NCBI GenBank assembly: GCA_963666435.2
Contig: CAXXOG010000008.1
Location: 51,286-91,285, forward strand
DNA: 40,000 nt
Direction: 5' to 3'
From: Prolixibacteraceae bacterium
GTDB taxonomy: Bacteria > Bacteroidota > Bacteroidia > Bacteroidales > Prolixibacteraceae
Shown here: positions 16,194-34,900 of the stretch, in pieces
Numbering within the stretch: position 1 is the first letter of the stretch
How the letters are laid out: the number at the start of each line of letters is the position of its first letter
The notes under the pieces: generated by a model
Seen by the model: only the letters and a program-made list of their open reading frames with translations
What the model was told of the DNA's origin: nothing
The model's database searches: none
Position numbers and translations under genes: made by a program

Positions 16194-16416
16194 ACCGGGT
16201 AGCTTACGCCCCCTAAGAACCGTACGTGCGACTTTCACCGCATACGGCTCAGGCCCTTTTAAGGCTCACCCGGCGGAGGGTAAATAAAATTCAATAAATC
16301 GCTCTACAAATACATACATCCAATCCCGGCGGGTGCGGTGTATCGAGCTTGCCGGGATGTAGTTCAACTCACACTCATCGCTGGGTCGTGCCAACCGCTC
16401 AGAGTCCTATTTATTA
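16194..16416 (-). repeat. junction repeat B2: B-family site module (16416->16281) plus 87-nt group II intron 3' fragment (16280->16194)
   Basis: The fragment carries an intact domain V (GAGCCGTATGCGGTGAAAGTCGCACGTACGGTTC) and domain VI, identical to the 3' end of the full-length introns. Confidence 0.85.
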
Positions 16417-17703: not shown

Positions 17704-17970
17704 ACCGGGTAGCTTACGCCCCCTAAGAACCGTACGTGCGACTTTCACCGCACACGGCTCAGGCACTTTTAAGGCTTGCCCGGCTGTTGTTACTTCAAAA
17801 ACTCAAAATCGGTCGCTAACTGCACACTTCGACAAGCTCTGTAACTACTTCGACAAGCTCTGTAACCTTAGCCCCGAATCCGGCGGGTGCGGTGTATCGA
17901 GCTTGCCGAGGTGTAGTTCAACACACACTCATCGCTGGGTCGTGCCGACCGCTCAGAGTCCTATTTATTA
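17704..17970 (-). repeat. junction repeat B3: B-family site module (17970->17796, with 2 x 21-bp internal tandem repeat) plus 92-nt intron 3' fragment (17795->17704)
   Basis: The fragment matches the full-length intron from the last codons of the RT ORF (GTAACAACAGCCGGG) through domains V-VI. The tandem units acttcgacaagctctgtaac lie at 17826-17867. Confidence 0.85.
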
Positions 17971-18554: not shown

Positions 18555-18654
18555 AAACTTCAGTTTCTGTTTTGTGATATAGGACAAAAAATAGTCTTAA
18601 ATATGTCATTTTATAGTATTTGTCTCTTTGTTATTAGCACAATAAATTACCCAC

Positions 18655-18676
18655 AACGTAGGAAGCTACACGCAGG
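18655..18676 (-). repeat. A-family site A1, arm separated from the rest by IS insertion
   Basis: aacgtaggaagctacacgcagg is identical to the equivalent arm of the intact A sites at 25644, 28568 and 31696. Confidence 0.85.
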
Positions 18677-18766
18677 CTGTATGTTTGTAAGTGCGCAATG
18701 CATAAGCCTTCAGTGTTTTTGTAAATTTAGTTTTTGAAAAAGAAACAAAACAAAAAACGAAGACTT

Positions 18767-19843
18767 ATGCTAGCTAAAGGTACGACAATTGATTTTAACG
18801 GGCAAAACGTTTATGCCGGAATTGATATTCATTTAAAGAGTTGGAAGGTAACCATCATGTTGGGAGACCGGGAACATAAAACATTTTCACAAGATCCGAA
18901 TGCAGAAACCCTGTGGAATTACCTGCGGAAGAATTTTCCCGGGGCAGTATATCATTCAGCCTACGAAGCAGGTTTTTGCGGATTCAGCGCCCATCGCGAA
19001 CTTGCGGGTTTTGGGATACACAATCTGGTGGTCAATCCTGCGGATATACCTACCACCGACAAAGAAAAGCGGCAGAAGGAAGACAAACGCGACAGTCGCA
19101 AGATCGCCAAATCGCTCCGTAACGGTGAACTGGTGGGCATCTATGTTCCGGGCAAGGGGATGGAAGAACTGCGTGGTCTGGTTCGTTACCGCAAAACGCT
19201 GGTAAAAGAAATCAGCCGCCATAAGTGCAGGATCAAGTCGTTCATTTATTTTAACGGCATACAAATTCCAATGGAACTGGGCGGCACCTCAACGCATTGG
19301 TCCGGGAGGTTCACCCGGTGGTTAAGCGCAGTTGAATTATCAACGGTACATGGCAAAATGGTACTTGACGACACAGTCGATACGGCAGAACTGCTGCGAA
19401 AAAAACTGTTAAAGGTCAACCGGCATTTGCGTCAGGTTGTCCAGAATGGGGAATATTCACAGCAACTAAGGTTATTGCAGAGCATCCCGGGAATCGGCCT
19501 GATATCGGCCATTACACTTTTGACCGAAATGGAGGATATCCTTCGGTTCAGGAACCTTGACCAACTTTGTTCATTCGTGGGACTGGTACCATCAACCAAC
19601 TCCTCGGGCGAAAAGGAGAATGTTGGTCGTATCACCAGGCGCAACAACCGTTTTCTACGCAGCATTCTTGTAGAGGCAGCCTGGATGGCATCGAGAAAAG
19701 ACCCGTCGCTGTTATATAGCTATGCCTTACTTTGCAAGCGGATGGAACCAACGGAAGCCATCATCCGGATAGCAAAAAAATTACTAAACAGGATAAGATA
19801 TGTAATGAAAAATGAAACAGAATATGTACATTCAGTGCTATAA
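18767..19843 (+). CDS. IS110-family transposase (DEDD N-domain plus Transposase_20-type C-domain)
   Basis: N-terminal VYAGIDIHLKSW and C-terminal LQSIPGIGLISAITLLTEM...FVGLVPSTNSSGEK..GRITRRNNRFLRSILVEAAW are typical of the family. The ORF is open from TTG 18734, but the ATG at 18767 is the likelier start. Confidence 0.9.
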   Translation: MLAKGTTIDFNGQNVYAGIDIHLKSWKVTIMLGDREHKTFSQDPNAETLWNYLRKNFPGAVYHSAYEAGFCGFSAHRELAGFGIHNLVVNPADIPTTDKEKRQKEDKRDSRKIAKSLRNGELVGIYVPGKGMEELRGLVRYRKTLVKEISRHKCRIKSFIYFNGIQIPMELGGTSTHWSGRFTRWLSAVELSTVHGKMVLDDTVDTAELLRKKLLKVNRHLRQVVQNGEYSQQLRLLQSIPGIGLISAITLLTEMEDILRFRNLDQLCSFVGLVPSTNSSGEKENVGRITRRNNRFLRSILVEAAWMASRKDPSLLYSYALLCKRMEPTEAIIRIAKKLLNRIRYVMKNETEYVHSVL

Positions 19844-19899
19844 CATCAAAACTGGTTGTAAAAACTACTCCATGATAAAGAGACTGTTTTCCGCCCCTT

Positions 19900-20140
19900 G
19901 CGGCCCCTGATAGGGTGTCCGTTACACGCAGGCCACAGCTCTTATCTATAATAAATTGAACACAGGAATGCGGCTGGTTGCACCATGTCCGTTGATAGAA
20001 GGGTGTTTTTATAGACCGGTATTTGATACAAAAGAGGGGAACCCGAAGGTGAAGTTTTACACCGAAGGTTTAGAAATTATGCTGGGCTTTTGCCCAGCAT
20101 AATTAAACCAAGAGGGGAAACCCTCAGGCTCTGTATTGCC
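19900..20140 (+). ncRNA. candidate bridge/seek RNA of the IS (3' non-coding region)
   Basis: Four short segments match the insertion chemistry. TACACGCAGG (19923-19932) equals the target left flank plus core. TGCGG (19969-19973) equals the target right flank. ATAGAAGG (19995-20002) equals the IS right end plus core. CTGTAT (20131-20136) equals the IS left end. Two of these follow a repeated GTCCGTT scaffold. The RNA boundaries are not defined. Confidence 0.5.
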
Positions 20141-20233
20141 CAAAGGTTTAGGGATTTAAAAAGTTAACTTACTGAATAGTAGAAAAATAGTTTAAAAATA
20201 AAGAATGAAAAATTTGGATTACAACATAGAAGG

Positions 20234-20356
20234 GGCGGACTGCGGGCGATTTGGCTAACGCCGATTTTCAATTCCTGTCAAGCCGAAATGCAGCCCGGGC
20301 GGAAAGATACACACCGAAAACCAATGCTGCCGACCTTGACGGGTAGCTGATGTTAT
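20234..20356 (-). repeat. A-family site A1, remainder
   Basis: ggcggactgcgggcgatttggctaacgccgattttcaattcctgtcaagccgaaa...gacgggtagctgatgttat is homologous to the intact A sites. Confidence 0.85.
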
Positions 20357-20379
20357 ATGCCGCTCTTATTCTGTCCCAT

Positions 20380-21117
20380 TTAATATTCAAACCTAATGGA
20401 ATAATATTGCAATAAATCTTTATCATTCTGTTGGTCATATTCGTGAGTCGCAATGTATATAGTGTTTTTGTCTGCCCAAAACATTGCTGTTTTTTCATCC
20501 TCATTAATGTCAATGTCCGTAAAATCAAATGCAAAAAGCGTCCAAACGCCATTTTTTGAAGACTTGCATATCTCAATTTGAAGGAAATTGTCGCAATCTT
20601 GTCTCTCCAACCCAACCCAAAGTCCATCTTTGGACATCACACCATATTCGCCTCTAAATCTTCGATAACCTGATGCTACTTTATTTGTGCTGGCAAACAC
20701 AAAACTTGCTTTTGCATTATGATAGTCTAGTATGTAAAACAAATATAAGTTAAGAGTAGGATAATATGCTTTAAAAGAAGTAAGGCATCTCGGTGAATTG
20801 CATAATTCACTTTTTGCAAGTTCTTTTTCATCTTCATTGTAAGTTTTTTCAATAGACTCAAATGGTTTTTCAAGTTTTGTAGTGTCACCAATTTCGGTTA
20901 CAAAAGGTGCATTATAGTTTCTTTTTAATGCGTTTCTAAATTCTAATTTGGTAATAGGCGAAAAGGTAAAAAATCGTCTATTTCCTTCTGACTTTGTGCT
21001 GTCAGCCTTGATTGTCTGTGCATTTGTCGAGTTGTTACAACTTATCAAAAGCAAAGTCGCTATGAGTGTCCTAGCAATTTGAAGTCTTAATGTCGATATG
21101 GTAATTGTCTTGCTCAT
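20380..21117 (-). CDS. hypothetical secreted/lipoprotein
   Basis: 245-aa ORF with the signal LLLISCNNS. The cassette is bracketed by a 13/14 inverted repeat. Confidence 0.65.
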   Translation of the reverse strand: MSKTITISTLRLQIARTLIATLLLISCNNSTNAQTIKADSTKSEGNRRFFTFSPITKLEFRNALKRNYNAPFVTEIGDTTKLEKPFESIEKTYNEDEKELAKSELCNSPRCLTSFKAYYPTLNLYLFYILDYHNAKASFVFASTNKVASGYRRFRGEYGVMSKDGLWVGLERQDCDNFLQIEICKSSKNGVWTLFAFDFTDIDINEDEKTAMFWADKNTIYIATHEYDQQNDKDLLQYYSIRFEY

Positions 21118-21138: not shown

Positions 21139-21162
21139 ATAACGTAGGAAGCTACACGCAGG
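21139..21162 (-). repeat. A-family site A2, arm separated by IS insertion
   Basis: ataacgtaggaagctacacgcagg, the same arm as at 18655-18676. Confidence 0.85.
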
Positions 21163-21252
21163 CTGTATGTTTGTAAGTGCGCAATGCATAAGCCTTCAGT
21201 GTTTTTGTAAATTTAGTTTTTGAAAAAGAAACAAAACAAAAAACGAAGACTT

Positions 21253-22329
21253 ATGCTAGCTAAAGGTACGACAATTGATTTTAACGGGCAAAACGTTTAT
21301 GCCGGAATTGATATTCATTTAAAGAGTTGGAAGGTAACCATCATGTTGGGAGACCGGGAACATAAAACATTTTCACAAGATCCGAATGCAGAAACCCTGT
21401 GGAATTACCTGCGGAAGAATTTTCCCGGGGCAGTATATCATTCAGCCTACGAAGCAGGTTTTTGCGGATTCAGCGCCCATCGCGAACTTGCGGGTTTTGG
21501 GATACACAATCTGGTGGTCAATCCTGCGGATATACCTACCACCGACAAAGAAAAGCGGCAGAAGGAAGACAAACGCGACAGTCGCAAGATCGCCAAATCG
21601 CTCCGTAACGGTGAACTGGTGGGCATCTATGTTCCGGGCAAGGGGATGGAAGAACTGCGTGGTCTGGTTCGTTACCGCAAAACGCTGGTAAAAGAAATCA
21701 GCCGCCATAAGTGCAGGATCAAGTCGTTCATTTATTTTAACGGCATACAAATTCCAATGGAACTGGGCGGCACCTCAACGCATTGGTCCGGGAGGTTCAC
21801 CCGGTGGTTAAGCGCAGTTGAATTATCAACGGTACATGGCAAAATGGTACTTGACGACACAGTCGATACGGCAGAACTGCTGCGAAAAAAACTGTTAAAG
21901 GTCAACCGGCATTTGCGTCAGGTTGTCCAGAATGGGGAATATTCACAGCAACTAAGGTTATTGCAGAGCATCCCGGGAATCGGCCTGATATCGGCCATTA
22001 CACTTTTGACCGAAATGGAGGATATCCTTCGGTTCAGGAACCTTGACCAACTTTGTTCATTCGTGGGACTGGTACCATCAACCAACTCCTCGGGCGAAAA
22101 GGAGAATGTTGGTCGTATCACCAGGCGCAACAACCGTTTTCTACGCAGCATTCTTGTAGAGGCAGCCTGGATGGCATCGAGAAAAGACCCGTCGCTGTTA
22201 TATAGCTATGCCTTACTTTGCAAGCGGATGGAACCAACGGAAGCCATCATCCGGATAGCAAAAAAATTACTAAACAGGATAAGATATGTAATGAAAAATG
22301 AAACAGAATATGTACATTCAGTGCTATAA
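21253..22329 (+). CDS. IS110-family transposase (copy 2, identical protein)
   Basis: The ORF-track protein is identical to that of copy 1. Confidence 0.9.
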   Translation: MLAKGTTIDFNGQNVYAGIDIHLKSWKVTIMLGDREHKTFSQDPNAETLWNYLRKNFPGAVYHSAYEAGFCGFSAHRELAGFGIHNLVVNPADIPTTDKEKRQKEDKRDSRKIAKSLRNGELVGIYVPGKGMEELRGLVRYRKTLVKEISRHKCRIKSFIYFNGIQIPMELGGTSTHWSGRFTRWLSAVELSTVHGKMVLDDTVDTAELLRKKLLKVNRHLRQVVQNGEYSQQLRLLQSIPGIGLISAITLLTEMEDILRFRNLDQLCSFVGLVPSTNSSGEKENVGRITRRNNRFLRSILVEAAWMASRKDPSLLYSYALLCKRMEPTEAIIRIAKKLLNRIRYVMKNETEYVHSVL

Positions 22330-22385
22330 CATCAAAACTGGTTGTAAAAACTACTCCATGATAAAGAGACTGTTTTCCGCCCCTT

Positions 22386-22626
22386 GCGGCCCCTGATAGG
22401 GTGTCCGTTACACGCAGGCCACAGCTCTTATCTATAATAAATTGAACACAGGAATGCGGCTGGTTGCACCATGTCCGTTGATAGAAGGGTGTTTTTATAG
22501 ACCGGTATTTGATACAAAAGAGGGGAACCCGAAGGTGAAGTTTTACACCGAAGGTTTAGAAATTATGCTGGGCAAAAGCCCAGCATAATTAAACCAAGAG
22601 GGGAAACCCTCAGGCTCTGTATTGCC
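22386..22626 (+). ncRNA. candidate bridge/seek RNA, copy 2
   Basis: Same sequence as 19900-20140, except that the hairpin loop at 22574-22577 is AAAA instead of TTTT. Confidence 0.45.
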
Positions 22627-22719
22627 CAAAGGTTTAGGGATTTAAAAAGTTAACTTACTGAATAGTAGAAAAATAGTTTAAAAATAAAGAATGAAAAATT
22701 TGGATTACAACATAGAAGG

Positions 22720-23407: not shown

Positions 23408-25643
23408 ACCGGGTAGCTTACGCCCCCTAAGAACCGTACGTGCGACTTTCACCGCATACGGCTCAGGCACTTTTAAGGCTCACCCGGCGGAGGGCAACCC
23501 GGCTGTTGTTACTTTTTTATTGGACATAAACATAGTAATTTGTTTGCATTCTTTTGCTAAATTAGCTCTCCATTTTGTTCTGTTACTGAAGTATTCATCA
23601 AATTCGGGCAGAAAAGGATTGGCTTCGGCCTTCAGTTTTACATGATACCGAATGGGAACATATCCAATACGGTACAGTCGATGATTCTCTGTTCCGTTTT
23701 TGGTGATCCGCTGATCAGTAAAATGGTTGTCGTGAAAGTAACGATGGTATATCCACCAGCGATTTTTGTTTCCATGCTGGTATTTAGCCCATCGCCTGAG
23801 CTGCCACCAGATGAATGTTGCCAAACGGATGAAAATACGTTTTGAGCAGATGCCTTTGTGGTAGTTCGACCATCCCCTGATTACAGGGTTCAGTATCCGT
23901 ATCAGAGCATGTGCGGGTATTCCACGGTTTTCGTTGATGATCGTTTTCACCTTGTCTCTAAACGATTGGACTGATTCTTTCGATGGACGAATAACCAGTT
24001 TGCCTTTAAATTTACGGACATTCTGTGAAAGGAAGTTAAACCCATCGCTGATATGCGTGATTCTGGATTTTTCGGCAGAGAGTTCTAACCCTCTTTCCAT
24101 CAGGAAGTCGTTTACCAAAGGGATAATCTCTTCGGTAATGACTTCTTTGCTGATGGCCGTGATCACAAAATCGTCGGCATAACGGATGAAGTTCACTTTC
24201 TTGTTTTTCCATCGGGGAAACTTTTTATTGATGGCCGTTTCCAGTCCGTCCAAAACCATGTTCATGATTACCGGTGATATGGTTCCTCCCTGTGGCGTAC
24301 CTTTATCTGTGCGGAACAAACGTTTTTTCTCGATGTAACCGGCTTTTAACCATTGATTAAGAATGGTCTTGTTGACGGGAATATTTTCCAATATCCAGTC
24401 GTGCCGGATGTTATCGAAACAAGATTTGATGTCCGCCTCGAATATCCATTGGGACGAGATTTTTCGGCAGAGCAATTGGAAACAGGCGGCAATGGCATCG
24501 TTGCACGAACGACGAGGTCTGAACCCGTAAGAGTTCTTGTCGGCCAACGATTCGGCCATTGGTTCGAGGGCTATCTTATGCAATGTTTGCATAGCCCTGT
24601 CGCTCATGACCGGAATACTTAACGGACGCTTTTTCCCGTTTTTCTTTGGGATGTAAAGTCGGCGCAATGGTTTCGATCTGTACCCTCTGGATTGGAGTTT
24701 TCGGGCTGCTTCGAGTTTTTCTTCCCCGTTTGTCCAAACGGTGTTGTCAACCCCGGGAGTTGCGCCTCCTTTGTTGGTTGAGACCCTTAGTACAGCCAGT
24801 AATTTAGCGTAGAATGATTTGGTAACAAGGTGCATCAGGGCTTTTGCTTTCGCCCAACGACCTTGTTTTACAGCCTTGGCAATGCGGCGTTGCAGCCTGG
24901 TCACATGTTGGATAACCTTCCGCCATAAAATGGTTTGCCAGTTATTCAATTGGTGTGGGAGCGCACACGATAAACTTTCATCCTCGTTCATTTGCTTTCT
25001 TCCATTTGCAGGTTCTGTAAAACTTTATGCCATAAAGCACCAGATGAAGGTAGGCAGGCTTTCGCCCGTGGTGATGTTGTAAACAAACTCAACCACTATC
25101 CAACCCGTTACAGGAAGGCATTCGCTTTGTTCATCGTCTCTGTCCGGCGTTTCCCGATGCCTCGCGGTTACGGTTTTATCCCGAAAATAATGGGAGAGAG
25201 CGCCGGGCTTACACGTTCCGAATAAATAATCAATTGTGTGGGTTTAGGCCCATCCTGTCTGCCGGCTGATCTACATCCTTGTAGGCACTGCGTTAAACGT
25301 ACCTAACCTGTCAGCTCACCATTTTGGTACAAAGCGTATCATTCTCTTTTTCGCTCCTACTCGCCTGTCGGCAGTAACGGATTGTTCACTATATGTTAGC
25401 CATGCCCACTGATCCAAGCCCTTAATTGACTTTGAGACTTCAAAGACTGTCTGCCTCACGGTTTCCAGCCCCGCCATTGGCTGCACGAGCCCGGCAATTG
25501 GTACTGTTTCCCGGGGGCTTCACCCGGTAATGGCTGCACCATACACCAGGTGCCCCGGTAGGATACTGCTGAAGGAACAGCAGGTTTTGTCAATCAGTTG
25601 TAACTGACTGCAAAACAATTGCTTAATACGACTTCGTGTCGCA
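23408..25643 (-). mobile_element. group II intron, full length, copy 1 (2236 nt; boundaries +/- 2 nt)
   Basis: Domain V lies at 23464->23431 (GAGCCGTATGCGGTGAAAGTCGCACGTACGGTTC). Domain VI (GGGGGC-GUAA-GCUACCC) has a bulged A at 23414, 7 nt from the 3' end. An RT/maturase ORF sits in domain IV, preceded by a ~650-nt 5' ribozyme region. The intron lies exactly between site A3 and the next cassette. Confidence 0.9.
23480..24991 (-). CDS. group II intron reverse transcriptase/maturase (no HNH endonuclease domain)
   Basis: RT motifs RLYIPKKNGKKRPLSIPVMSDRAMQ and FIRYADDFVI (YADD), plus the maturase/X domain RGWSNYH. Length is 503 aa. Confidence 0.95.
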   Translation of the reverse strand: MNEDESLSCALPHQLNNWQTILWRKVIQHVTRLQRRIAKAVKQGRWAKAKALMHLVTKSFYAKLLAVLRVSTNKGGATPGVDNTVWTNGEEKLEAARKLQSRGYRSKPLRRLYIPKKNGKKRPLSIPVMSDRAMQTLHKIALEPMAESLADKNSYGFRPRRSCNDAIAACFQLLCRKISSQWIFEADIKSCFDNIRHDWILENIPVNKTILNQWLKAGYIEKKRLFRTDKGTPQGGTISPVIMNMVLDGLETAINKKFPRWKNKKVNFIRYADDFVITAISKEVITEEIIPLVNDFLMERGLELSAEKSRITHISDGFNFLSQNVRKFKGKLVIRPSKESVQSFRDKVKTIINENRGIPAHALIRILNPVIRGWSNYHKGICSKRIFIRLATFIWWQLRRWAKYQHGNKNRWWIYHRYFHDNHFTDQRITKNGTENHRLYRIGYVPIRYHVKLKAEANPFLPEFDEYFSNRTKWRANLAKECKQITMFMSNKKVTTAGLPSAG

Positions 25644-25790
25644 ATAACGTAGGAAGCTACACGCAGGTGCGGATTGCGGGCGATTTGGCTAACGCCGATT
25701 TTCAATTCCTGTCAAGCCGAAAAGCCGACCGAGCGGAAAGATGCACACCGAAAACCACCGAACCCGCACTTGACGGGTAGCTGATGTTAT
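25644..25790 (-). repeat. A-family attC-like site A3 (intact)
   Basis: Imperfect inverted arms: TAACGTAGGAAGCTACACGCAGGTGCGG ... CCGCACTTGACGGGTAGCTGATGTTA. It starts ~20 nt after the stop of the 25811-26359 ORF. Confidence 0.85.
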
Positions 25791-28567: not shown

Positions 28568-28713
28568 TAACGTAGGAAGCTACACGCAGGTGCGGTTTGC
28601 GGGCGATTTGGCTAACGCCGATTTTCAATTCCTGTCAAGCTGATAAACAGCCCGAGCGGAAAGATGCACCCCGAAAACCACCAAACCCGCACTTGACGGG
28701 TAGCTGATGTTAC
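28568..28713 (-). repeat. A-family attC-like site A4 (intact)
   Basis: Same architecture as A3, with a few substitutions. It starts ~12 nt after the stop of the TIR-like ORF. Confidence 0.85.
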
Positions 28714-29459: not shown

Positions 29460-31695
29460 ACCGGGTAGCTTACGCCCCCTAAGAACCGTACGTGCGACTT
29501 TCACCGCATACGGCTCAGGCACTTTTAAGGCTCACCCGGCGGAGGGCAACCCGGCTGTTGTTACTTTTTTATTGGACATAAACATAGTAATTTGTTTGCA
29601 TTCTTTTGCTAAATTAGCTCTCCATTTTGTTCTGTTACTGAAGTATTCATCAAATTCGGGCAGAAAAGGATTGGCTTCGGCCTTCAGTTTTACATGATAC
29701 CGAATGGGAACATATCCAATACGGTACAGTCGATGATTCTCTGTTCCGTTTTTGGTGATCCGCTGATCAGTAAAATGGTTGTCGTGAAAGTAACGATGGT
29801 ATATCCACCAGCGATTTTTGTTTCCATGCTGGTATTTAGCCCATCGCCTGAGCTGCCACCAGATGAATGTTGCCAAACGGATGAAAATACGTTTTGAGCA
29901 GATGCCTTTGTGGTAGTTCGACCATCCCCTGATTACAGGGTTCAGTATCCGTATCAGAGCATGTGCGGGTATTCCACGGTTTTCGTTGATGATCGTTTTC
30001 ACCTTGTCTCTAAACGATTGGACTGATTCTTTCGATGGACGAATAACCAGTTTGCCTTTAAATTTACGGACATTCTGTGAAAGGAAGTTAAACCCATCGC
30101 TGATATGCGTGATTCTGGATTTTTCGGCAGAGAGTTCTAACCCTCTTTCCATCAGGAAGTCGTTTACCAAAGGGATAATCTCTTCGGTAATGACTTCTTT
30201 GCTGATGGCCGTGATCACAAAATCGTCGGCATAACGGATGAAGTTCACTTTCTTGTTTTTCCATCGGGGAAACTTTTTATTGATGGCCGTTTCCAGTCCG
30301 TCCAAAACCATGTTCATGATTACCGGTGATATGGTTCCTCCCTGTGGCGTACCTTTATCTGTGCGGAACAAACGTTTTTTCTCGATGTAACCGGCTTTTA
30401 ACCATTGATTAAGAATGGTCTTGTTGACGGGAATATTTTCCAATATCCAGTCGTGCCGGATGTTATCGAAACAAGATTTGATGTCCGCCTCGAATATCCA
30501 TTGGGACGAGATTTTTCGGCAGAGCAATTGGAAACAGGCGGCAATGGCATCGTTGCACGAACGACGAGGTCTGAACCCGTAAGAGTTCTTGTCGGCCAAC
30601 GATTCGGCCATTGGTTCGAGGGCTATCTTATGCAATGTTTGCATAGCCCTGTCGCTCATGACCGGAATACTTAACGGACGCTTTTTCCCGTTTTTCTTTG
30701 GGATGTAAAGTCGGCGCAATGGTTTCGATCTGTACCCTCTGGATTGGAGTTTTCGGGCTGCTTCGAGTTTTTCTTCCCCGTTTGTCCAAACGGTGTTGTC
30801 AACCCCGGGAGTTGCGCCTCCTTTGTTGGTTGAGACCCTTAGTACAGCCAGTAATTTAGCGTAGAATGATTTGGTAACAAGGTGCATCAGGGCTTTTGCT
30901 TTCGCCCAACGACCTTGTTTTACAGCCTTGGCAATGCGGCGTTGCAGCCTGGTCACATGTTGGATAACCTTCCGCCATAAAATGGTTTGCCAGTTATTCA
31001 ATTGGTGTGGGAGCGCACACGATAAACTTTCATCCTCGTTCATTTGCTTTCTTCCATTTGCAGGTTCTGTAAAACTTTATGCCATAAAGCACCAGATGAA
31101 GGTAGGCAGGCTTTCGCCCGTGGTGATGTTGTAAACAAACTCAACCACTATCCAACCCGTTACAGGAAGGCATTCGCTTTGTTCATCGTCTCTGTCCGGC
31201 GTTTCCCGATGCCTCGCGGTTACGGTTTTATCCCGAAAATAATGGGAGAGAGCGCCGGGCTTACACGTTCCGAATAAATAATCAATTGTGTGGGTTTAGG
31301 CCCATCCTGTCTGCCGGCTGATCTACATCCTTGTAGGCACTGCGTTAAACGTACCTAACCTGTCAGCTCACCATTTTGGTACAAAGCGTATCATTCTCTT
31401 TTTCGCTCCTACTCGCCTGTCGGCAGTAACGGATTGTTCACTATATGTTAGCCATGCCCACTGATCCAAGCCCTTAATTGACTTTGAGACTTCAAAGACT
31501 GTCTGCCTCACGGTTTCCAGCCCCGCCATTGGCTGCACGAGCCCGGCAATTGGTACTGTTTCCCGGGGGCTTCACCCGGTAATGGCTGCACCATACACCA
31601 GGTGCCCCGGTAGGATACTGCTGAAGGAACAGCAGGTTTTGTCAATCAGTTGTAACTGACTGCAAAACAATTGCTTAATACGACTTCGTGTCGCA
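29460..31695 (-). mobile_element. group II intron, full length, copy 2 (identical to copy 1)
   Basis: Offset of +6052 from copy 1. Identity extends through the adjoining A site (29460-31838 equals 23408-25786). Confidence 0.9.
29532..31043 (-). CDS. group II intron reverse transcriptase/maturase (copy 2)
   Basis: Its 503-aa translation is identical to that of 23480-24991. Confidence 0.95.
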   Translation of the reverse strand: MNEDESLSCALPHQLNNWQTILWRKVIQHVTRLQRRIAKAVKQGRWAKAKALMHLVTKSFYAKLLAVLRVSTNKGGATPGVDNTVWTNGEEKLEAARKLQSRGYRSKPLRRLYIPKKNGKKRPLSIPVMSDRAMQTLHKIALEPMAESLADKNSYGFRPRRSCNDAIAACFQLLCRKISSQWIFEADIKSCFDNIRHDWILENIPVNKTILNQWLKAGYIEKKRLFRTDKGTPQGGTISPVIMNMVLDGLETAINKKFPRWKNKKVNFIRYADDFVITAISKEVITEEIIPLVNDFLMERGLELSAEKSRITHISDGFNFLSQNVRKFKGKLVIRPSKESVQSFRDKVKTIINENRGIPAHALIRILNPVIRGWSNYHKGICSKRIFIRLATFIWWQLRRWAKYQHGNKNRWWIYHRYFHDNHFTDQRITKNGTENHRLYRIGYVPIRYHVKLKAEANPFLPEFDEYFSNRTKWRANLAKECKQITMFMSNKKVTTAGLPSAG

Positions 31696-31842
31696 ATAAC
31701 GTAGGAAGCTACACGCAGGTGCGGATTGCGGGCGATTTGGCTAACGCCGATTTTCAATTCCTGTCAAGCCGAAAAGCCGACCGAGCGGAAAGATGCACAC
31801 CGAAAACCACCGAACCCGCACTTGACGGGTAGCTGAAGTTAT
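31696..31842 (-). repeat. A-family attC-like site A5 (intact)
   Basis: Identical to A3 up to the outer core. It starts ~15 nt after the stop of the 31858-32139 ORF. Confidence 0.85.
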
Positions 31843-34460: not shown

Positions 34461-34900
34461 TCGCGTACTCTCAGGATGGCTCTGCGCTGTTGTAGTATCA
34501 CATCGCGCACTCATAAGACAGCTTCGCACGGTTGTAAGACGGTTCCGCGCACTCTTAAGATGGCTTCGCACGGTCTTAAGACGGTTCCGCGCACTCACAA
34601 GACGGCTTTGCACGGTCTTAAGACGGTTCCGCGCACTCACAAGATGGCTTCGCACGGTCTTAAGACGGTTCCGCGCACTCACAAGACAGCTTCGCGCGGT
34701 TGTAAGATGGTTCCGCAGTATCTTAATACGGTTCCGCGTGCCATTTAGATGACTTTGCAGACACTTTATGCGGCTTTGCAACACCCCTCCGATGACTTTG
34801 CAGGCACTTTATCCGGCTTTGTAACACCCCTCCGATGGCTTTGCAGGCACTTTATGCGGCTTTGTAACACTCTTCCGATGACTTTGCAGGTGGCTTTCCC
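34461..34900. repeat. tandem array of ~21 units of 21 bp (42/43-bp higher-order periodicity)
   Basis: Units in register at 34503, 34524, 34545 ... alternate ccgcgcactcacaagatggct and tcgcacggtcttaagacggtt. From 34748 there are three 43-bp units, gatgactttgcag.cactttat.cggctttg.aacac.c.tcc. Confidence 0.9.

What the first reader, a model, noticed from the sequence alone, without database searches (positions are those of the whole stretch)
19900..20140. The IS 3' non-coding region contains all four guide-like segments expected of a bridge/seek RNA
Within the 390-bp region downstream of the transposase, four segments match the target and the IS ends.

- GTCCGTT-ACACGCAGG (19923-19932) reproduces the target left flank plus the GG core (A site: GCTACACGCAGG).
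- AA-TGCGG-CTGG (19969-19973) reproduces the first 5 nt of the target right flank.
- GTCCGTT-GATAGAAGG (19995-20002) reproduces the IS right end plus core (ACATAGAAGG).
- GGCT-CTGTAT-TGCC (20131-20136) reproduces the IS left end (CTGTATG).

The two left guides follow the same GTCCGTT scaffold motif. IS110-family recombinases are known to use an IS-encoded non-coding RNA with one loop specifying the target and another specifying the donor, and in the IS1111 group this RNA lies 3' of the ORF. Here the predicted guides can be read directly against a natural, repeated target, the A site. That gives an internally validated guide-target pair.
Basis: partly seen in the sequence, partly recalled or inferred. 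Interest (0 to 1): 0.75.

Follow-up and report, generated by a model that had tools for sequence, protein, structure and literature searches.

The report
Bridge RNA of an IS1111-type element

Summary
The window holds two near-identical copies of an IS110-family, IS1111-like insertion sequence (18676-20232 and 21162-22718). Both sit in a ~150-nt palindromic repeat, the "A site", of which three empty copies remain. Just after the transposase gene, 19878-20015 folds into two paralogous modules. Each is an outer stem, an internal loop and an inner hairpin (GCGG...GUCCGU).

About 110 homologous elements support the four helices: 96% of cells are paired, 21 of 28 pairs show compensatory changes, and RNAalifold finds the same helices independently.

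- **Right target guide:** actually UCCGCCCCU (19890-19898) on the 5' side of loop 1, the reverse complement of core plus right flank.
- **Right donor guide:** actually ACAG (19962-19965) on the 5' side of loop 2, pairing with CTGT at the IS left end.

Target guides track flanks across 50-55 target classes (0 of 10,000 permutations). The shared core is more likely AG than GG. This is a new member of a known kind.

The parts
18655..18675 (+). Left half of the interrupted A-site target. It ends in ...GCTACACGC + core AG (18674-18675).
   Evidence: Alignment of the two occupied and three empty A sites; sequence.
18676..20232 (+). IS copy 1 (1557 bp, counting one AG core at its right end). Left end GCTG-TATGTTTGTAA; right end TTACAACATA-GA-AG.
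   Evidence: Self-BLAST and pairwise alignment of the two copies. Junctions compared across about 70 homologs fix the shared core as AG.
18680..18690 (+). Left sub-terminal inverted repeat TATGTTTGTAA. It also matches the Bacteroidetes -7 promoter consensus TAnnTTTG.
   Evidence: Reverse complement of the right end is TATGTT-GTAA, 10 of 11 with one indel. The motif is nearly invariant in homologs.
18767..19843 (+). Transposase gene (358 aa from the ATG). N-terminal DEDD/RuvC-like domain plus C-terminal Transposase_20 domain, with the motif GLVPSTNSSG.
   Evidence: Pfam PF01548 (4e-13) and PF02371 (2.5e-25). NCBIfam NF033542 'IS110 family RNA-guided transposase', 204.7 bits against a cut-off of 140. 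Distant PDB hits to ISCro4 and IS621 transposases.
19878..20015 (+). Bridge/seek RNA core: module 1 (target-binding) plus module 2 (donor-binding).
   Evidence: Covariance model R1 scores 135.7 bits here and at 22361-22505. [quoted passage not shown] 96.4% of cells are paired and 21 of 28 pairs show double changes. RNAalifold recovers the same four helices.
19878..19887 (+). P1 5' strand (AAGAGACUGU), pairing with 19935-19943 (ACAGCUCUU).
   Evidence: Helix 1: 97% of cells paired, 8 of 9 pairs with compensatory changes.
19888..19899 (+). 5' side of loop 1, UUUCCGCCCCUU. It contains the true right target guide (19890-19898). U19898-C19897 pair with core AG. [quoted passage not shown] U19899 can pair with the last A of the IS right end, in the manner of a handshake guide.
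   Evidence: Reverse complement matches core plus right flank: 9 nt for copy 1, one mismatch for copy 2 and the empty sites. Covaries with the right flank across 50 target classes: mean longest match 6.62 against 3.64 +/- 0.14, 0 of 10,000 permutations. U19899.
19900..19922 (+). P2 inner hairpin of module 1 (GCGG...GUCCGU).
   Evidence: Helix 2: 100% of cells paired, 3 of 5 pairs with compensatory changes. The G-U closing pair marks the + strand as the RNA strand.
19923..19934 (+). 3' side of loop 1, UACACGCAGGCC. This is the left target guide, same sense as the top strand and so pairing with the bottom strand of left flank plus core. Core AG is 19930-19931.
   Evidence: 10-nt match to the A site, reached by 3 of 1000 shuffles. 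Covaries with the left flank across 55 classes: 5.84 against 3.46 +/- 0.14, 0 of 10,000.
19945..19955 (+). P3 5' strand (UCUAUAAUAAA), pairing with 20006-20015 (UUUUUAUAGA).
   Evidence: Helices 3 and 4: 92% of cells paired, 7 pairs with compensatory changes.
19956..19969 (+). 5' side of loop 2, UUGAACACAGGAAU. The true right donor guide is ACAG (19962-19965), pairing with the top strand CTGT (18677-18680) of the IS left end. It has no complement to the core.
   Evidence: Position-by-position pairing in 37 distinct combinations. IS left-end position +2 is Watson-Crick in 35 of 37. Position +3 is Watson-Crick in 36 of 37 with three pair types. Position +4 shows four Watson-Crick pair types. Position +5 pairs in 37 of 37 counting G-U.
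19970..19992 (+). P4 inner hairpin of module 2 (GCGG...GUCCGU).
   Evidence: Helix 5: 100% of cells paired, 3 of 4 pairs compensatory. The segment is TGCGG in 42 of 71 homologs and matches the right flank in 1 of 71.
19993..20005 (+). 3' side of loop 2, UGAUAGAAGGGUG. The left donor guide is AUAGAAG(G), 19995-20002, the same sequence as IS right end ATAGA + core AG + first base of the left end.
   Evidence: 8-nt match at the position paralogous to the left target guide. Conserved together with the invariant IS right end in all homologs. Covariation cannot be tested because the end does not vary.
20030..20155 (+). Accessory module: two paralogous small stem-loops flanking a perfect hairpin (20075-20104).
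   Evidence: The module is present in many homologs, replaced by an unrelated conserved block in others, and absent in short elements such as L044, L068 and L078. The loop does not covary with the IS left end.
20219..20228 (+). Right sub-terminal inverted repeat TTACAACATA.
20233..20356 (+). Right half of the interrupted A site. It starts GGGCGGACTGCGGG.
21162..22718 (+). IS copy 2, in a second A site whose right flank is GTGCGGATCG. It is identical to copy 1 except that the hairpin loop reads AAAA instead of TTTT. Its bridge RNA is at 22361-22505.
25645..25789 (+). Empty A site. Target TACACGC-AG-GTGCGGA lies at 25658-25673. Further empty copies are at 28568-28712 and 31697-31841.
   Evidence: The repeat folds as a long imperfect palindrome.

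Best explanation
Region 19878-20015 encodes the guide RNA (bridge RNA, or long seekRNA) of an IS1111-type insertion sequence. It is probably co-transcribed with the transposase gene and then processed.

The RNA is two tandem paralogous modules. Each has an outer stem, an internal loop and an inner hairpin closed by GCGG/GUCCGU.

[quoted passage not shown] **Module 2 reads the donor**, meaning the joined IS ends ...ACATAGA-AG-GCTGTATG.... [quoted passage not shown] The DEDD/serine transposase then exchanges strands at the AG core and inserts the element without a target duplication.

**Shown here:** the structure, the strand, the covariation of both target guides with their flanks, the covariation of the right donor guide with the left end, and the conservation of the left donor guide.

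**Inferred from published IS621, ISEc11 and related work:** that the RNA is made, that it binds the transposase, and the chemistry of the reaction.
For: - **Family.** The protein carries the IS110-family domains and passes NCBI's 'IS110 family RNA-guided transposase' model.
- **Recent activity.** Two copies, identical except for one hairpin loop, sit at the same point of a repeat that also has three empty copies.
- **Conserved RNA.** A covariance model finds one hit per element, always on the + strand 3' of the gene, in about 100 loci with 48-94% protein identity.
- **Structure.** 96.4% of cells are paired, against 36-55% when partners are slid by 1-3 columns. 21 of 28 pairs have changes on both sides. 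No shuffle of 500 reaches the observed values. RNAalifold on an unfitted MAFFT alignment returns the same four helices. The G-U closing pairs fix the strand.
- **Target guides.** The left guide read in the same sense and the right guide read as reverse complement both exceed all 10,000 permutations. All four wrong-sense or wrong-side controls are null.
- **Compensatory examples between close relatives.** L020 against L021 (guide AGUCC against AGUUC; flank GGACT against GAACT). L022 against L023 (ACGGU against ACCGU; AACCGTT against AACGGTT).
- **Natural retargeting.** The L004 family has 80% protein identity and the same scaffold. Its guides ACCCGUAGG and GAAUUCCC match its own target TTCCCGTAGGGAATTA.
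- **Right donor guide.** ACAG/CTGT, ACUG/CAGT, AAGG/CCTT, ACGG/CCGT, AUGG/CCAT and AGGG/CCCT are all seen.
- **Agreement with the literature.** The guide order (top-strand guide 5', bottom-strand guide 3'), the 3' location and the sizes (module 1 is 66 nt, both modules 138 nt) match published IS1111 seekRNAs (PMC11187229) and the report that IS1111 bridge RNAs lie in the right end (PMC11208160).
Against: - There is no expression or binding evidence for this RNA.
- Rfam 15 has no matching family.
- Single-sequence minimum-free-energy folds do not recover the two-loop structure and pair part of the guides instead.
- The left donor guide cannot be tested by covariation because the IS right end is invariant. 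On its own its 8-nt match is reached by 66 of 1000 shuffles.
- The right donor guide is only 4-5 nt and does not pair with the core. In IS621 all four guides include the core.
- About a third of classes show only 3-4 nt left-flank matches. Likely causes are off-target insertions, indels or mis-called ends.
- The right target guide has one mismatch to copy 2 and to the three empty sites (G against T at the second base of the right flank).
Confidence: 0.85

Rival explanations
1. The four same-sense segments at 19923-19932, 19969-19973, 19995-20002 and 20131-20136 are the four guides, with a GG core.
For: All four strings exist. In this window alone AGG is shared by the target and the IS right end, so a GG core cannot be excluded from the window itself.
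Against: - TGCGG is a base-paired scaffold stem with compensatory changes. It is unchanged in homologs with unrelated targets and matches the right flank in 1 of 71.
- The CTGTAT loop matches the IS left end in 2 of 17 lineages, and its module is dispensable.
- Both matches are at chance level (374 of 1000 and 727 of 1000 shuffles).
- Same-sense reading of the 5' loop side against the right flank gives no signal.
- In 12 non-redundant elements the base after AG differs between the two junctions. The left junction carries the base fixed for that IS lineage and the right junction carries a base that varies with the site. This fits an AG core.
Confidence: 0.03
2. Only module 1 is a functional guide, acting as a short seekRNA. 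Module 2 is a structural, processing or vestigial duplicate. The IS ends are recognised by the transposase through the sub-terminal inverted repeats, not by RNA.
For: For ISEc11 the short 82-nt seekRNA carrying only the target matches was sufficient for transposition, and the role of the long form was left open (PMC11187229). Here the inverted repeats and the right end are nearly invariant. The right donor guide is only 4-5 nt and has no core complement.
Against: - Module 2 is as conserved as module 1 and its helices covary.
- Its 5' loop side changes together with IS left-end positions +2 to +4 in at least six different Watson-Crick combinations.
- Its 3' loop side keeps a 7-8-nt copy of right end plus core, in the same register as the left target guide of module 1.
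Confidence: 0.1
3. The conserved block acts as DNA (transposase-binding sites or a recombination enhancer in the right end), not as RNA. The flank matches are copies of target sequence captured inside the element.
For: No transcript data. IS ends commonly carry protein-binding repeats.
Against: - The helices keep pairing through G-U pairs, which would be C-A mismatches on the other strand (58 of 79 and 61 of 74 at the two closing pairs).
- Compensatory changes preserve pairing rather than sequence.
- One guide matches in the same sense and the other as reverse complement, at fixed positions around a hairpin, in more than 50 independent target classes. Passive capture of flanks would not produce this.
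Confidence: 0.02

Closest known systems
IS1111-family seekRNAs (ISEc11, ISKpn4, ISPa11, ISPst6; Siddiquee et al. 2024, PMC11187229)
   Same: - DEDD transposase, sub-terminal inverted repeats with short terminal extensions, and a long non-coding region downstream of the gene.
- A target-reading RNA in which the segment complementary to the top strand lies 5' of the segment complementary to the bottom strand, and the two matches overlap at the insertion point.
- Short form of about 70-100 nt (module 1 here is 66 nt between the P1 ends) and long form of 145-170 nt (both modules here are 138 nt).
- Natural retargeting among relatives with about 70-80% identical transposases.
- Insertion without a target duplication into a repeated sequence.
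   Different: - A Bacteroidota (Prolixibacteraceae) lineage with a 358-aa transposase, slightly longer than the 330-350 aa quoted for IS1111 types.
- That paper did not assign donor-reading segments. Here a second, paralogous loop covaries with the IS left end.
- No experimental data exist for this element.
IS621 bridge RNA (IS110 group; Durrant et al. 2024, PMC11208160; Hiraizumi et al. 2024, PMC11208158)
   Same: - Two internal loops, one for the target and one for the donor.
- Each loop reads the bottom strand on the left of the core and the top strand on the right.
- A shared dinucleotide core.
- A base next to the right target guide that can pair with the donor rather than the target, like a handshake guide (U19899).
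   Different: - The RNA is 3' of the gene rather than in the left end.
- The order of guides within each loop is reversed: the top-strand guide is on the 5' side.
- The core is AG, not CT.
- The right donor guide does not pair with the core and is only 4-5 nt.
- The inverted repeats are about 11 bp rather than 2-3 bp.
- The protein is only distantly related (phmmer E = 3e-4, C-terminal domain only).
REP-targeting IS110-family elements of Pseudomonas putida (ISPpu9, with the downstream Ssr9 small RNA, PMC12288879; ISPpu10)
   Same: Multiple copies inserted at one point of a repeated extragenic palindromic element. ISPpu9 also has a small RNA gene downstream of the transposase.
   Different: Different phylum, target and RNA sequence. 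Not compared at sequence level here.

Membership tests
IS110 family (DEDD RNA-guided transposases) | N-terminal DEDD/RuvC-like domain (PF01548) plus C-terminal Transposase_20 domain (PF02371) | tested here: met
   PF01548 E = 4e-13 over residues 17-159. PF02371 E = 2.5e-25 over residues 235-315.
IS110 family (DEDD RNA-guided transposases) | Passes NCBIfam NF033542 'IS110 family RNA-guided transposase' above its curated cut-off | tested here: met
   204.7 bits against a cut-off of 140, with model positions 1-342 of 343 matched.
IS110 family (DEDD RNA-guided transposases) | Site-specific insertion without target-site duplication, with a short core shared by target and IS end | tested here: met
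   Comparison of empty and occupied A sites shows no duplication beyond the shared AG(G). AG is invariant at 71 of 71 left junctions and 67 of 71 right junctions.
IS1111 group | Sub-terminal inverted repeats of 7-17 bp with short terminal extensions | tested here: met
   TATGTTTGTAA (18680-18690) against TTACAACATA (20219-20228), 10 of 11 with one indel. The extensions are GCTG on the left and GA on the right. Conserved in homologs.
IS1111 group | The longer non-coding region, and the RNA, lie downstream of the transposase gene | tested here: met
   389 nt downstream (19844-20232) against 91 nt upstream (18676-18766). Covariance-model hits are always 3' of the gene.
IS1111 group | The guide complementary to the top strand lies 5' of the guide complementary to the bottom strand | tested here: met
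   Criterion taken from PMC11187229.
IS1111 group | C-terminal motif GL-P----S(T)G | tested here: met
   GLVPSTNSSG in the translation. L273, P275, S279 and S280 are invariant and G272 is conserved among 11 homologs.
IS1111 group | Transposase related over its full length to the IS1111 transposase (phylogenetic placement) | not tested
   No IS1111 or ISfinder reference sequences were available in the tools.
Bridge RNA / seekRNA | Conserved structured RNA with internal loop(s) flanked by stems | tested here: met
   Four helices supported by covariation and by RNAalifold.
Bridge RNA / seekRNA | Loop segments covary with the left and right halves of the target, one per DNA strand, overlapping at the core | tested here: met
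   Permutation tests give 0 of 10,000 for both guides, with null wrong-sense controls.
Bridge RNA / seekRNA | A second loop is complementary to the joined IS ends (the donor) | tested here: met
   The right donor guide covaries with IS left-end positions +2 to +5. The left donor guide equals the right end plus core, but that end never varies, so only the match and its register could be shown.
Bridge RNA / seekRNA | All four guides include the core dinucleotide (an IS621 feature) | tested here: not met
   The left target, right target and left donor guides include AG or its complement. The positions of the right donor side that would face the core are AA in most homologs (31 of 37 A opposite A at the first core base; 26 of 37 A opposite G at the second).
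Bridge RNA / seekRNA | The RNA is transcribed, binds the transposase and is required for transposition | not testable with these tools
   No expression or biochemical data.
Rfam families | Match to a curated covariance model | tested here: not met
   Nothing relevant at the gathering threshold, or at E <= 10, in 18600-20400 or in eight homologous loci.

The most novel reading that the evidence does not exclude
This Bacteroidota clade may use a reduced, asymmetric way of reading the donor, unlike IS621.
- The RNA reads only four variable bases of the IS left end and does not pair with the core there.
- The bases just after the core in the left target guide mostly match the IS left end rather than the target. 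The second base after the core equals the IS base in 60 of 71 cases and the target base in 4 of 71.

That pattern would fit a handshake on the bottom strand, with the invariant 11-bp inverted repeats read by protein or by the accessory hairpin module. If so, it would be a mechanistic variant of bridge recombination and not only a new sequence family.
Probability: 0.2. Interest if true: 0.5.

Novelty: new member of a known kind. Interest (0 to 1): 0.3.

Why it matters
This adds a well-supported Bacteroidota lineage to the RNA-guided IS110/IS1111 recombinases. It comes with a corrected guide map and more than 50 natural guide-target classes that share one scaffold, which amounts to a natural reprogramming series.

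It also gives a concrete, testable pairing in this window: a guide with three unoccupied copies of its natural target nearby.

It does not change the current picture of how these elements work. Its main value as a scan result is to show that same-sense string matching recovers only the two bottom-strand guides and produces false right-hand guides.

Tried and rejected
- **Single-sequence folding** of 19844-20233 and 19870-20070. The minimum-free-energy structures pair parts of the guides and do not show the two-loop architecture. The 201-nt fold is no better than shuffles (z = +0.89). Only the comparative structure was informative.
- **Rfam**, at gathering and permissive thresholds, on the IS and on eight homologs. 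No relevant family.
- **Sigma-70 promoter and terminator scan**. Nothing useful, as expected for Bacteroidota promoters.
- **Search of solved structures**. Only distant C-terminal matches to the ISCro4 and IS621 transposases.
- **Same-sense reading of the 5' loop side against the right flank, and the other wrong-sense or wrong-side combinations**. No signal.
- **The accessory hairpin loop as right donor guide**. Rejected.
- **GG as the core**. AG is more parsimonious, but GG cannot be excluded from this window alone.
- **The A site as the 5' end of the neighbouring group II intron**. Rejected, because the repeat also occurs without intron sequence. It looks like an independent palindromic repeat that the intron abuts.
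- **Loop of the first accessory unit as a mimic of the inverted repeat.** The resemblance (ATGTTT) is seen in some homologs but not in this window. Not pursued.
Full report
**What is in the window**

The ORF at 18767-19843 (358 aa from its ATG) has the two domains of IS110-family transposases, PF01548 and PF02371. It passes NCBI's model NF033542, 'IS110 family RNA-guided transposase', with 204.7 bits against a cut-off of 140. Its only relatives with solved structures are the ISCro4 and IS621 transposases, and these are distant.

An identical gene lies 2486 bp downstream. Self-comparison and alignment define two copies of one element. They are identical except for the four loop bases of one hairpin, TTTT against AAAA.

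Both copies interrupt a ~150-nt repeat. Three uninterrupted copies lie at 25645, 28568 and 31697. The empty site reads ...GCTACACGCAGG|TGCGGATTGCGGG. The occupied sites read ...ACACGCAGG-CTGTATG...ACATAGAAGG-(G/T)GCGGA.

The element has sub-terminal inverted repeats: TATGTTTGTAA at 18680-18690 and TTACAACATA at 20219-20228. It has 389 nt of non-coding sequence after the gene and 91 nt before it. Both are IS1111-group traits (PMC11187229, PMC11208160).

**Checking the four segments**

All four strings are at the stated places. I compared each match with dinucleotide-preserving shuffles of the non-coding region.

| Segment compared | Longest match | Shuffles reaching it (of 1000) |
|---|---|---|
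| Same sense, left flank + core | 10 nt | 3 |
| Same sense, IS right end | 8 nt | 66 |
| Reverse complement, core + right flank of copy 1 | 9 nt | 2 |

This is what the published mechanism predicts. In IS621 the left guides pair with the bottom strand, so they look like the top strand. The right guides pair with the top strand, so they appear as reverse complements (PMC11208160).

**Comparative evidence for the structure**

Scans with the protein returned 29 loci from genomes, mostly Prolixibacteraceae and other Bacteroidales metagenome-assembled genomes, and 80 loci from metagenomes. Protein identity ranges from 48% to 94%.

The region after the gene has a conserved scaffold with variable inserts. 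I proposed a structure of two tandem modules. Each is an outer stem, an internal loop and an inner hairpin closed by GCGG/GUCCGU.

- On a MAFFT alignment of 30 diverse sequences, 95% of cells are paired and 17 of 28 pairs show changes on both sides.
- RNAalifold, run without my structure, returns the same four helices.
- A covariance model built from that alignment finds one strong hit per element. Every hit is on the transposase strand just 3' of the gene. The window hits are 19875-20019 and 22361-22505 at 135.7 bits each.
- On the 79 distinct aligned sequences, 96.4% of cells are paired, against 36-55% when the 3' partners are slid by 1-3 columns. 21 of 28 pairs have changes on both sides. 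No shuffle of 500 reaches the observed values.
- The closing pairs of both inner hairpins are mostly G-U. That fixes the + strand as the folded strand and argues for RNA rather than DNA.

In window coordinates the parts are as follows.

| Part | Coordinates |
|---|---|
| P1 | 19878-19887 with 19935-19943 |
| Loop 1, 5' side | 19888-19899 |
| P2 hairpin | 19900-19922 |
| Loop 1, 3' side | 19923-19934 |
| P3 | 19945-19955 with 20006-20015 |
| Loop 2, 5' side | 19956-19969 |
| P4 hairpin | 19970-19992 |
| Loop 2, 3' side | 19993-20005 |

**Guides against flanks**

For every element I located the left junction through the conserved TATGTTTGTAA and the right junction through ACAACATAGAAG. I then extracted the four loop sides from the model alignment. 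Elements were collapsed into classes with different guides.

The statistic was the mean longest exact match between a loop side and its own flank, compared with 10,000 random re-pairings of RNAs and flanks.

| Comparison | Classes | Observed | Re-paired | Permutations reaching observed |
|---|---|---|---|---|
| 3' side of loop 1, same sense, against left flank + core | 55 | 5.84 | 3.46 +/- 0.14 | 0 of 10,000 |
| 5' side of loop 1, reverse complement, against core + right flank | 50 | 6.62 | 3.64 +/- 0.14 | 0 of 10,000 |

The four wrong-sense or wrong-side controls were null.

Individual cases are clear.
- The L004 family has 80% protein identity and the same scaffold. Its guides are ACCCGUAGG and GAAUUCCC, and it sits in TTCCCGTAGG|GAATTA sites.
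- L020 and L021 differ by AGUCC against AGUUC in the guide and by GGACT against GAACT in the flank.
- L022 and L023 differ by ACGGU against ACCGU in the guide and by AACCGTT against AACGGTT in the flank.

Loop 1 is therefore the target-binding loop. Its top-strand guide is 5' of its bottom-strand guide, the order reported for IS1111 seekRNAs and the reverse of IS110-type RNAs (PMC11187229).

**The donor loop**

The 3' side of loop 2 carries AUAGAAG(G), which equals the IS right end ATAGA plus AG. It sits in the same register after GUCCGU as the left target guide does in module 1. It is conserved in all homologs, but so is the IS right end, so covariation cannot be tested.

The 5' side of loop 2 does covary with the IS left end, in the same register as the right target guide.
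- Left-end position +2 is Watson-Crick in 35 of 37 distinct combinations.
- Position +3 is Watson-Crick in 36 of 37, with three pair types.
- Position +4 shows four Watson-Crick pair types.
- Position +5 pairs in 37 of 37, counting G-U.
- Matching sets seen: ACAG/CTGT, ACUG/CAGT, AAGG/CCTT, ACGG/CCGT, AUGG/CCAT and AGGG/CCCT.

In the window the right donor guide is ACAG, 19962-19965, pairing with CTGT at 18677-18680. Unlike IS621, the bases that would face the core are AA and do not pair with it.

TGCGG (19969-19973) is the last loop base plus the 5' strand of P4. It pairs with 19989-19992, and those pairs show compensatory changes. The segment is TGCGG in 42 of 71 non-redundant elements whatever the target. 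It equals the right flank only in this window's own element. The match arises because this particular target happens to contain GCGG.

CTGTAT (20131-20136) is in the loop of a small hairpin in a three-hairpin accessory block (about 20030-20155). Its variable bases do not follow the IS left end. Elements with the same GCTG left end carry TCGTAT, CAGTAT, CGGTAT or CCGTAT there, and only 2 of 17 lineages match. The whole block is replaced by an unrelated conserved block in some homologs. It is missing in elements with only 75-100 nt between module 2 and the IS end.

**The core**

Within the window, AGG is shared by the target and the IS right end, so the boundary is ambiguous.

Across homologs, AG is invariant in the left target guide (71 of 71), at the left junction (71 of 71) and at the right junction (67 of 71). 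The next base differs between the two junctions in 12 non-redundant elements.

In those elements the left junction carries the base fixed for that IS lineage, which differs between lineages. The right junction carries a base that varies with the site, and in most of them the right target guide predicts it.

The simplest reading is an AG core. On that reading the IS is 18676-20230 plus the AG at 20231-20232. A GG core is not strictly excluded.

**Likely mechanism**

By analogy with IS621 and ISEc11 (inference), the element excises as a circle whose junction is ...ACATAGA-AG-GCTGTATG.... Module 2 holds this junction and module 1 holds an A site. The transposase then exchanges strands at AG.

The last U of the right target guide side (19899) can pair with the A that precedes the core in the donor in 47 of 48 elements. 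It can pair with the corresponding target base in only 18 of 48. That resembles the IS621 handshake guide (PMC11208158), but the base never varies, so this is only a resemblance.

The guide matches the GGGCGG variant of the A site perfectly. That variant is found at copy 1 and at the insertions in other genomes (L001-L003, L013, L030). The guide has one mismatch to the GTGCGG variant at copy 2 and at the three empty sites.

**Comparison with what is known, and verdict**

Bridge RNAs were predicted computationally in 93% of ISfinder IS1111 elements, in the right end (PMC11208160). seekRNAs were shown experimentally for four IS1111-family members (PMC11187229). This element fits that kind in location, size, guide order and target logic.

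The differences I could document are modest.
- Both loops are simple internal loops of two clearly paralogous modules.
- The right donor guide is short and avoids the core.
- There is a dispensable accessory block.

I therefore rate it a new member of a known kind.

No experiment or expression data were available. That the RNA is made and used rests on comparative evidence and on published relatives.

Noticed in passing
window 25645-25789, 28568-28712, 31697-31841, plus the interrupted copies at 18655-18675/20233-20356 and 21141-21161/22719-22820: The 'A site' is a ~150-nt repeat with long imperfect terminal inverted repeats and folds as one long hairpin, like a MITE or REP element. The IS inserts in its left arm only.
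   Followed up: partly
window 23408-25644 and 29460-31696 (minus strand): Two copies of a group II intron: Rfam RF00029 and RF02012 hits plus a 503-aa ORF, repeated 6052 bp apart. Each abuts the left edge of an A-site copy. The same palindromic repeat therefore seems to serve as landing pad for both the intron and the IS. Further intron domain V/VI hits lie at 16194-16252 and 17704-17762.
   Followed up: partly
window 20075-20104 against 22561-22590: A perfect 12-bp hairpin inside the IS has loop TTTT in copy 1 and AAAA in copy 2. This loop inversion is the only difference between the two IS copies.
   Followed up: no
window 20213-20232 joined to 18676-18687 (predicted circle junction): Joining the IS ends would create TTTG-N20-TATGTTTG. 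As I recall it, that matches the Bacteroidetes -33/-7 promoter consensus (TTTG ... TAnnTTTG), positioned to drive the transposase gene and the RNA. The integrated copy has no TTTG at that distance. Junction promoters are known for IS110/IS1111 elements (PMC11187229).
   Followed up: partly
window 20030-20155 and homologous loci (for example L004:3770-3890 and L019): An accessory block of two paralogous small stem-loops (GAGGGGAA-CC...GGUUU) flanks the perfect hairpin. It is conserved in many homologs down to about 55% protein identity. In others (L037, L082, L083, L089, L092...) a different conserved ~200-nt block replaces it. In short elements (L044, L068, L078) it is absent. Function unknown.
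   Followed up: partly
L005:3950-4080; L012 and L006: L005 carries a tandem partial duplication of the IS right end, starting inside the accessory block at GAGG|GGAAAAC. L012 and L006 show IS copies in tandem arrays within clustered CCCGTAGG|GAATT targets.
   Followed up: no
L096:1557-1664 and L100:2459-2558: A second, weak covariance-model hit (46-47 bits) lies just upstream of the main RNA in these two loci. It may be a degenerate extra module.
   Followed up: no
window 19932-19934 and homologs: The bases after the core in the left target guide mostly match the first bases of the IS left end rather than the target. Position +2 equals the IS base in 60 of 71 cases and the target base in 4 of 71. 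Where the two junctions differ at position +1, five lineages follow the IS and one follows the target. This could be a handshake on the bottom strand, but the bases vary too little to prove it.
   Followed up: partly
window 34462-34890: Tandem repeat arrays with periods of 21 nt and 43 nt, unrelated to the IS.
   Followed up: no
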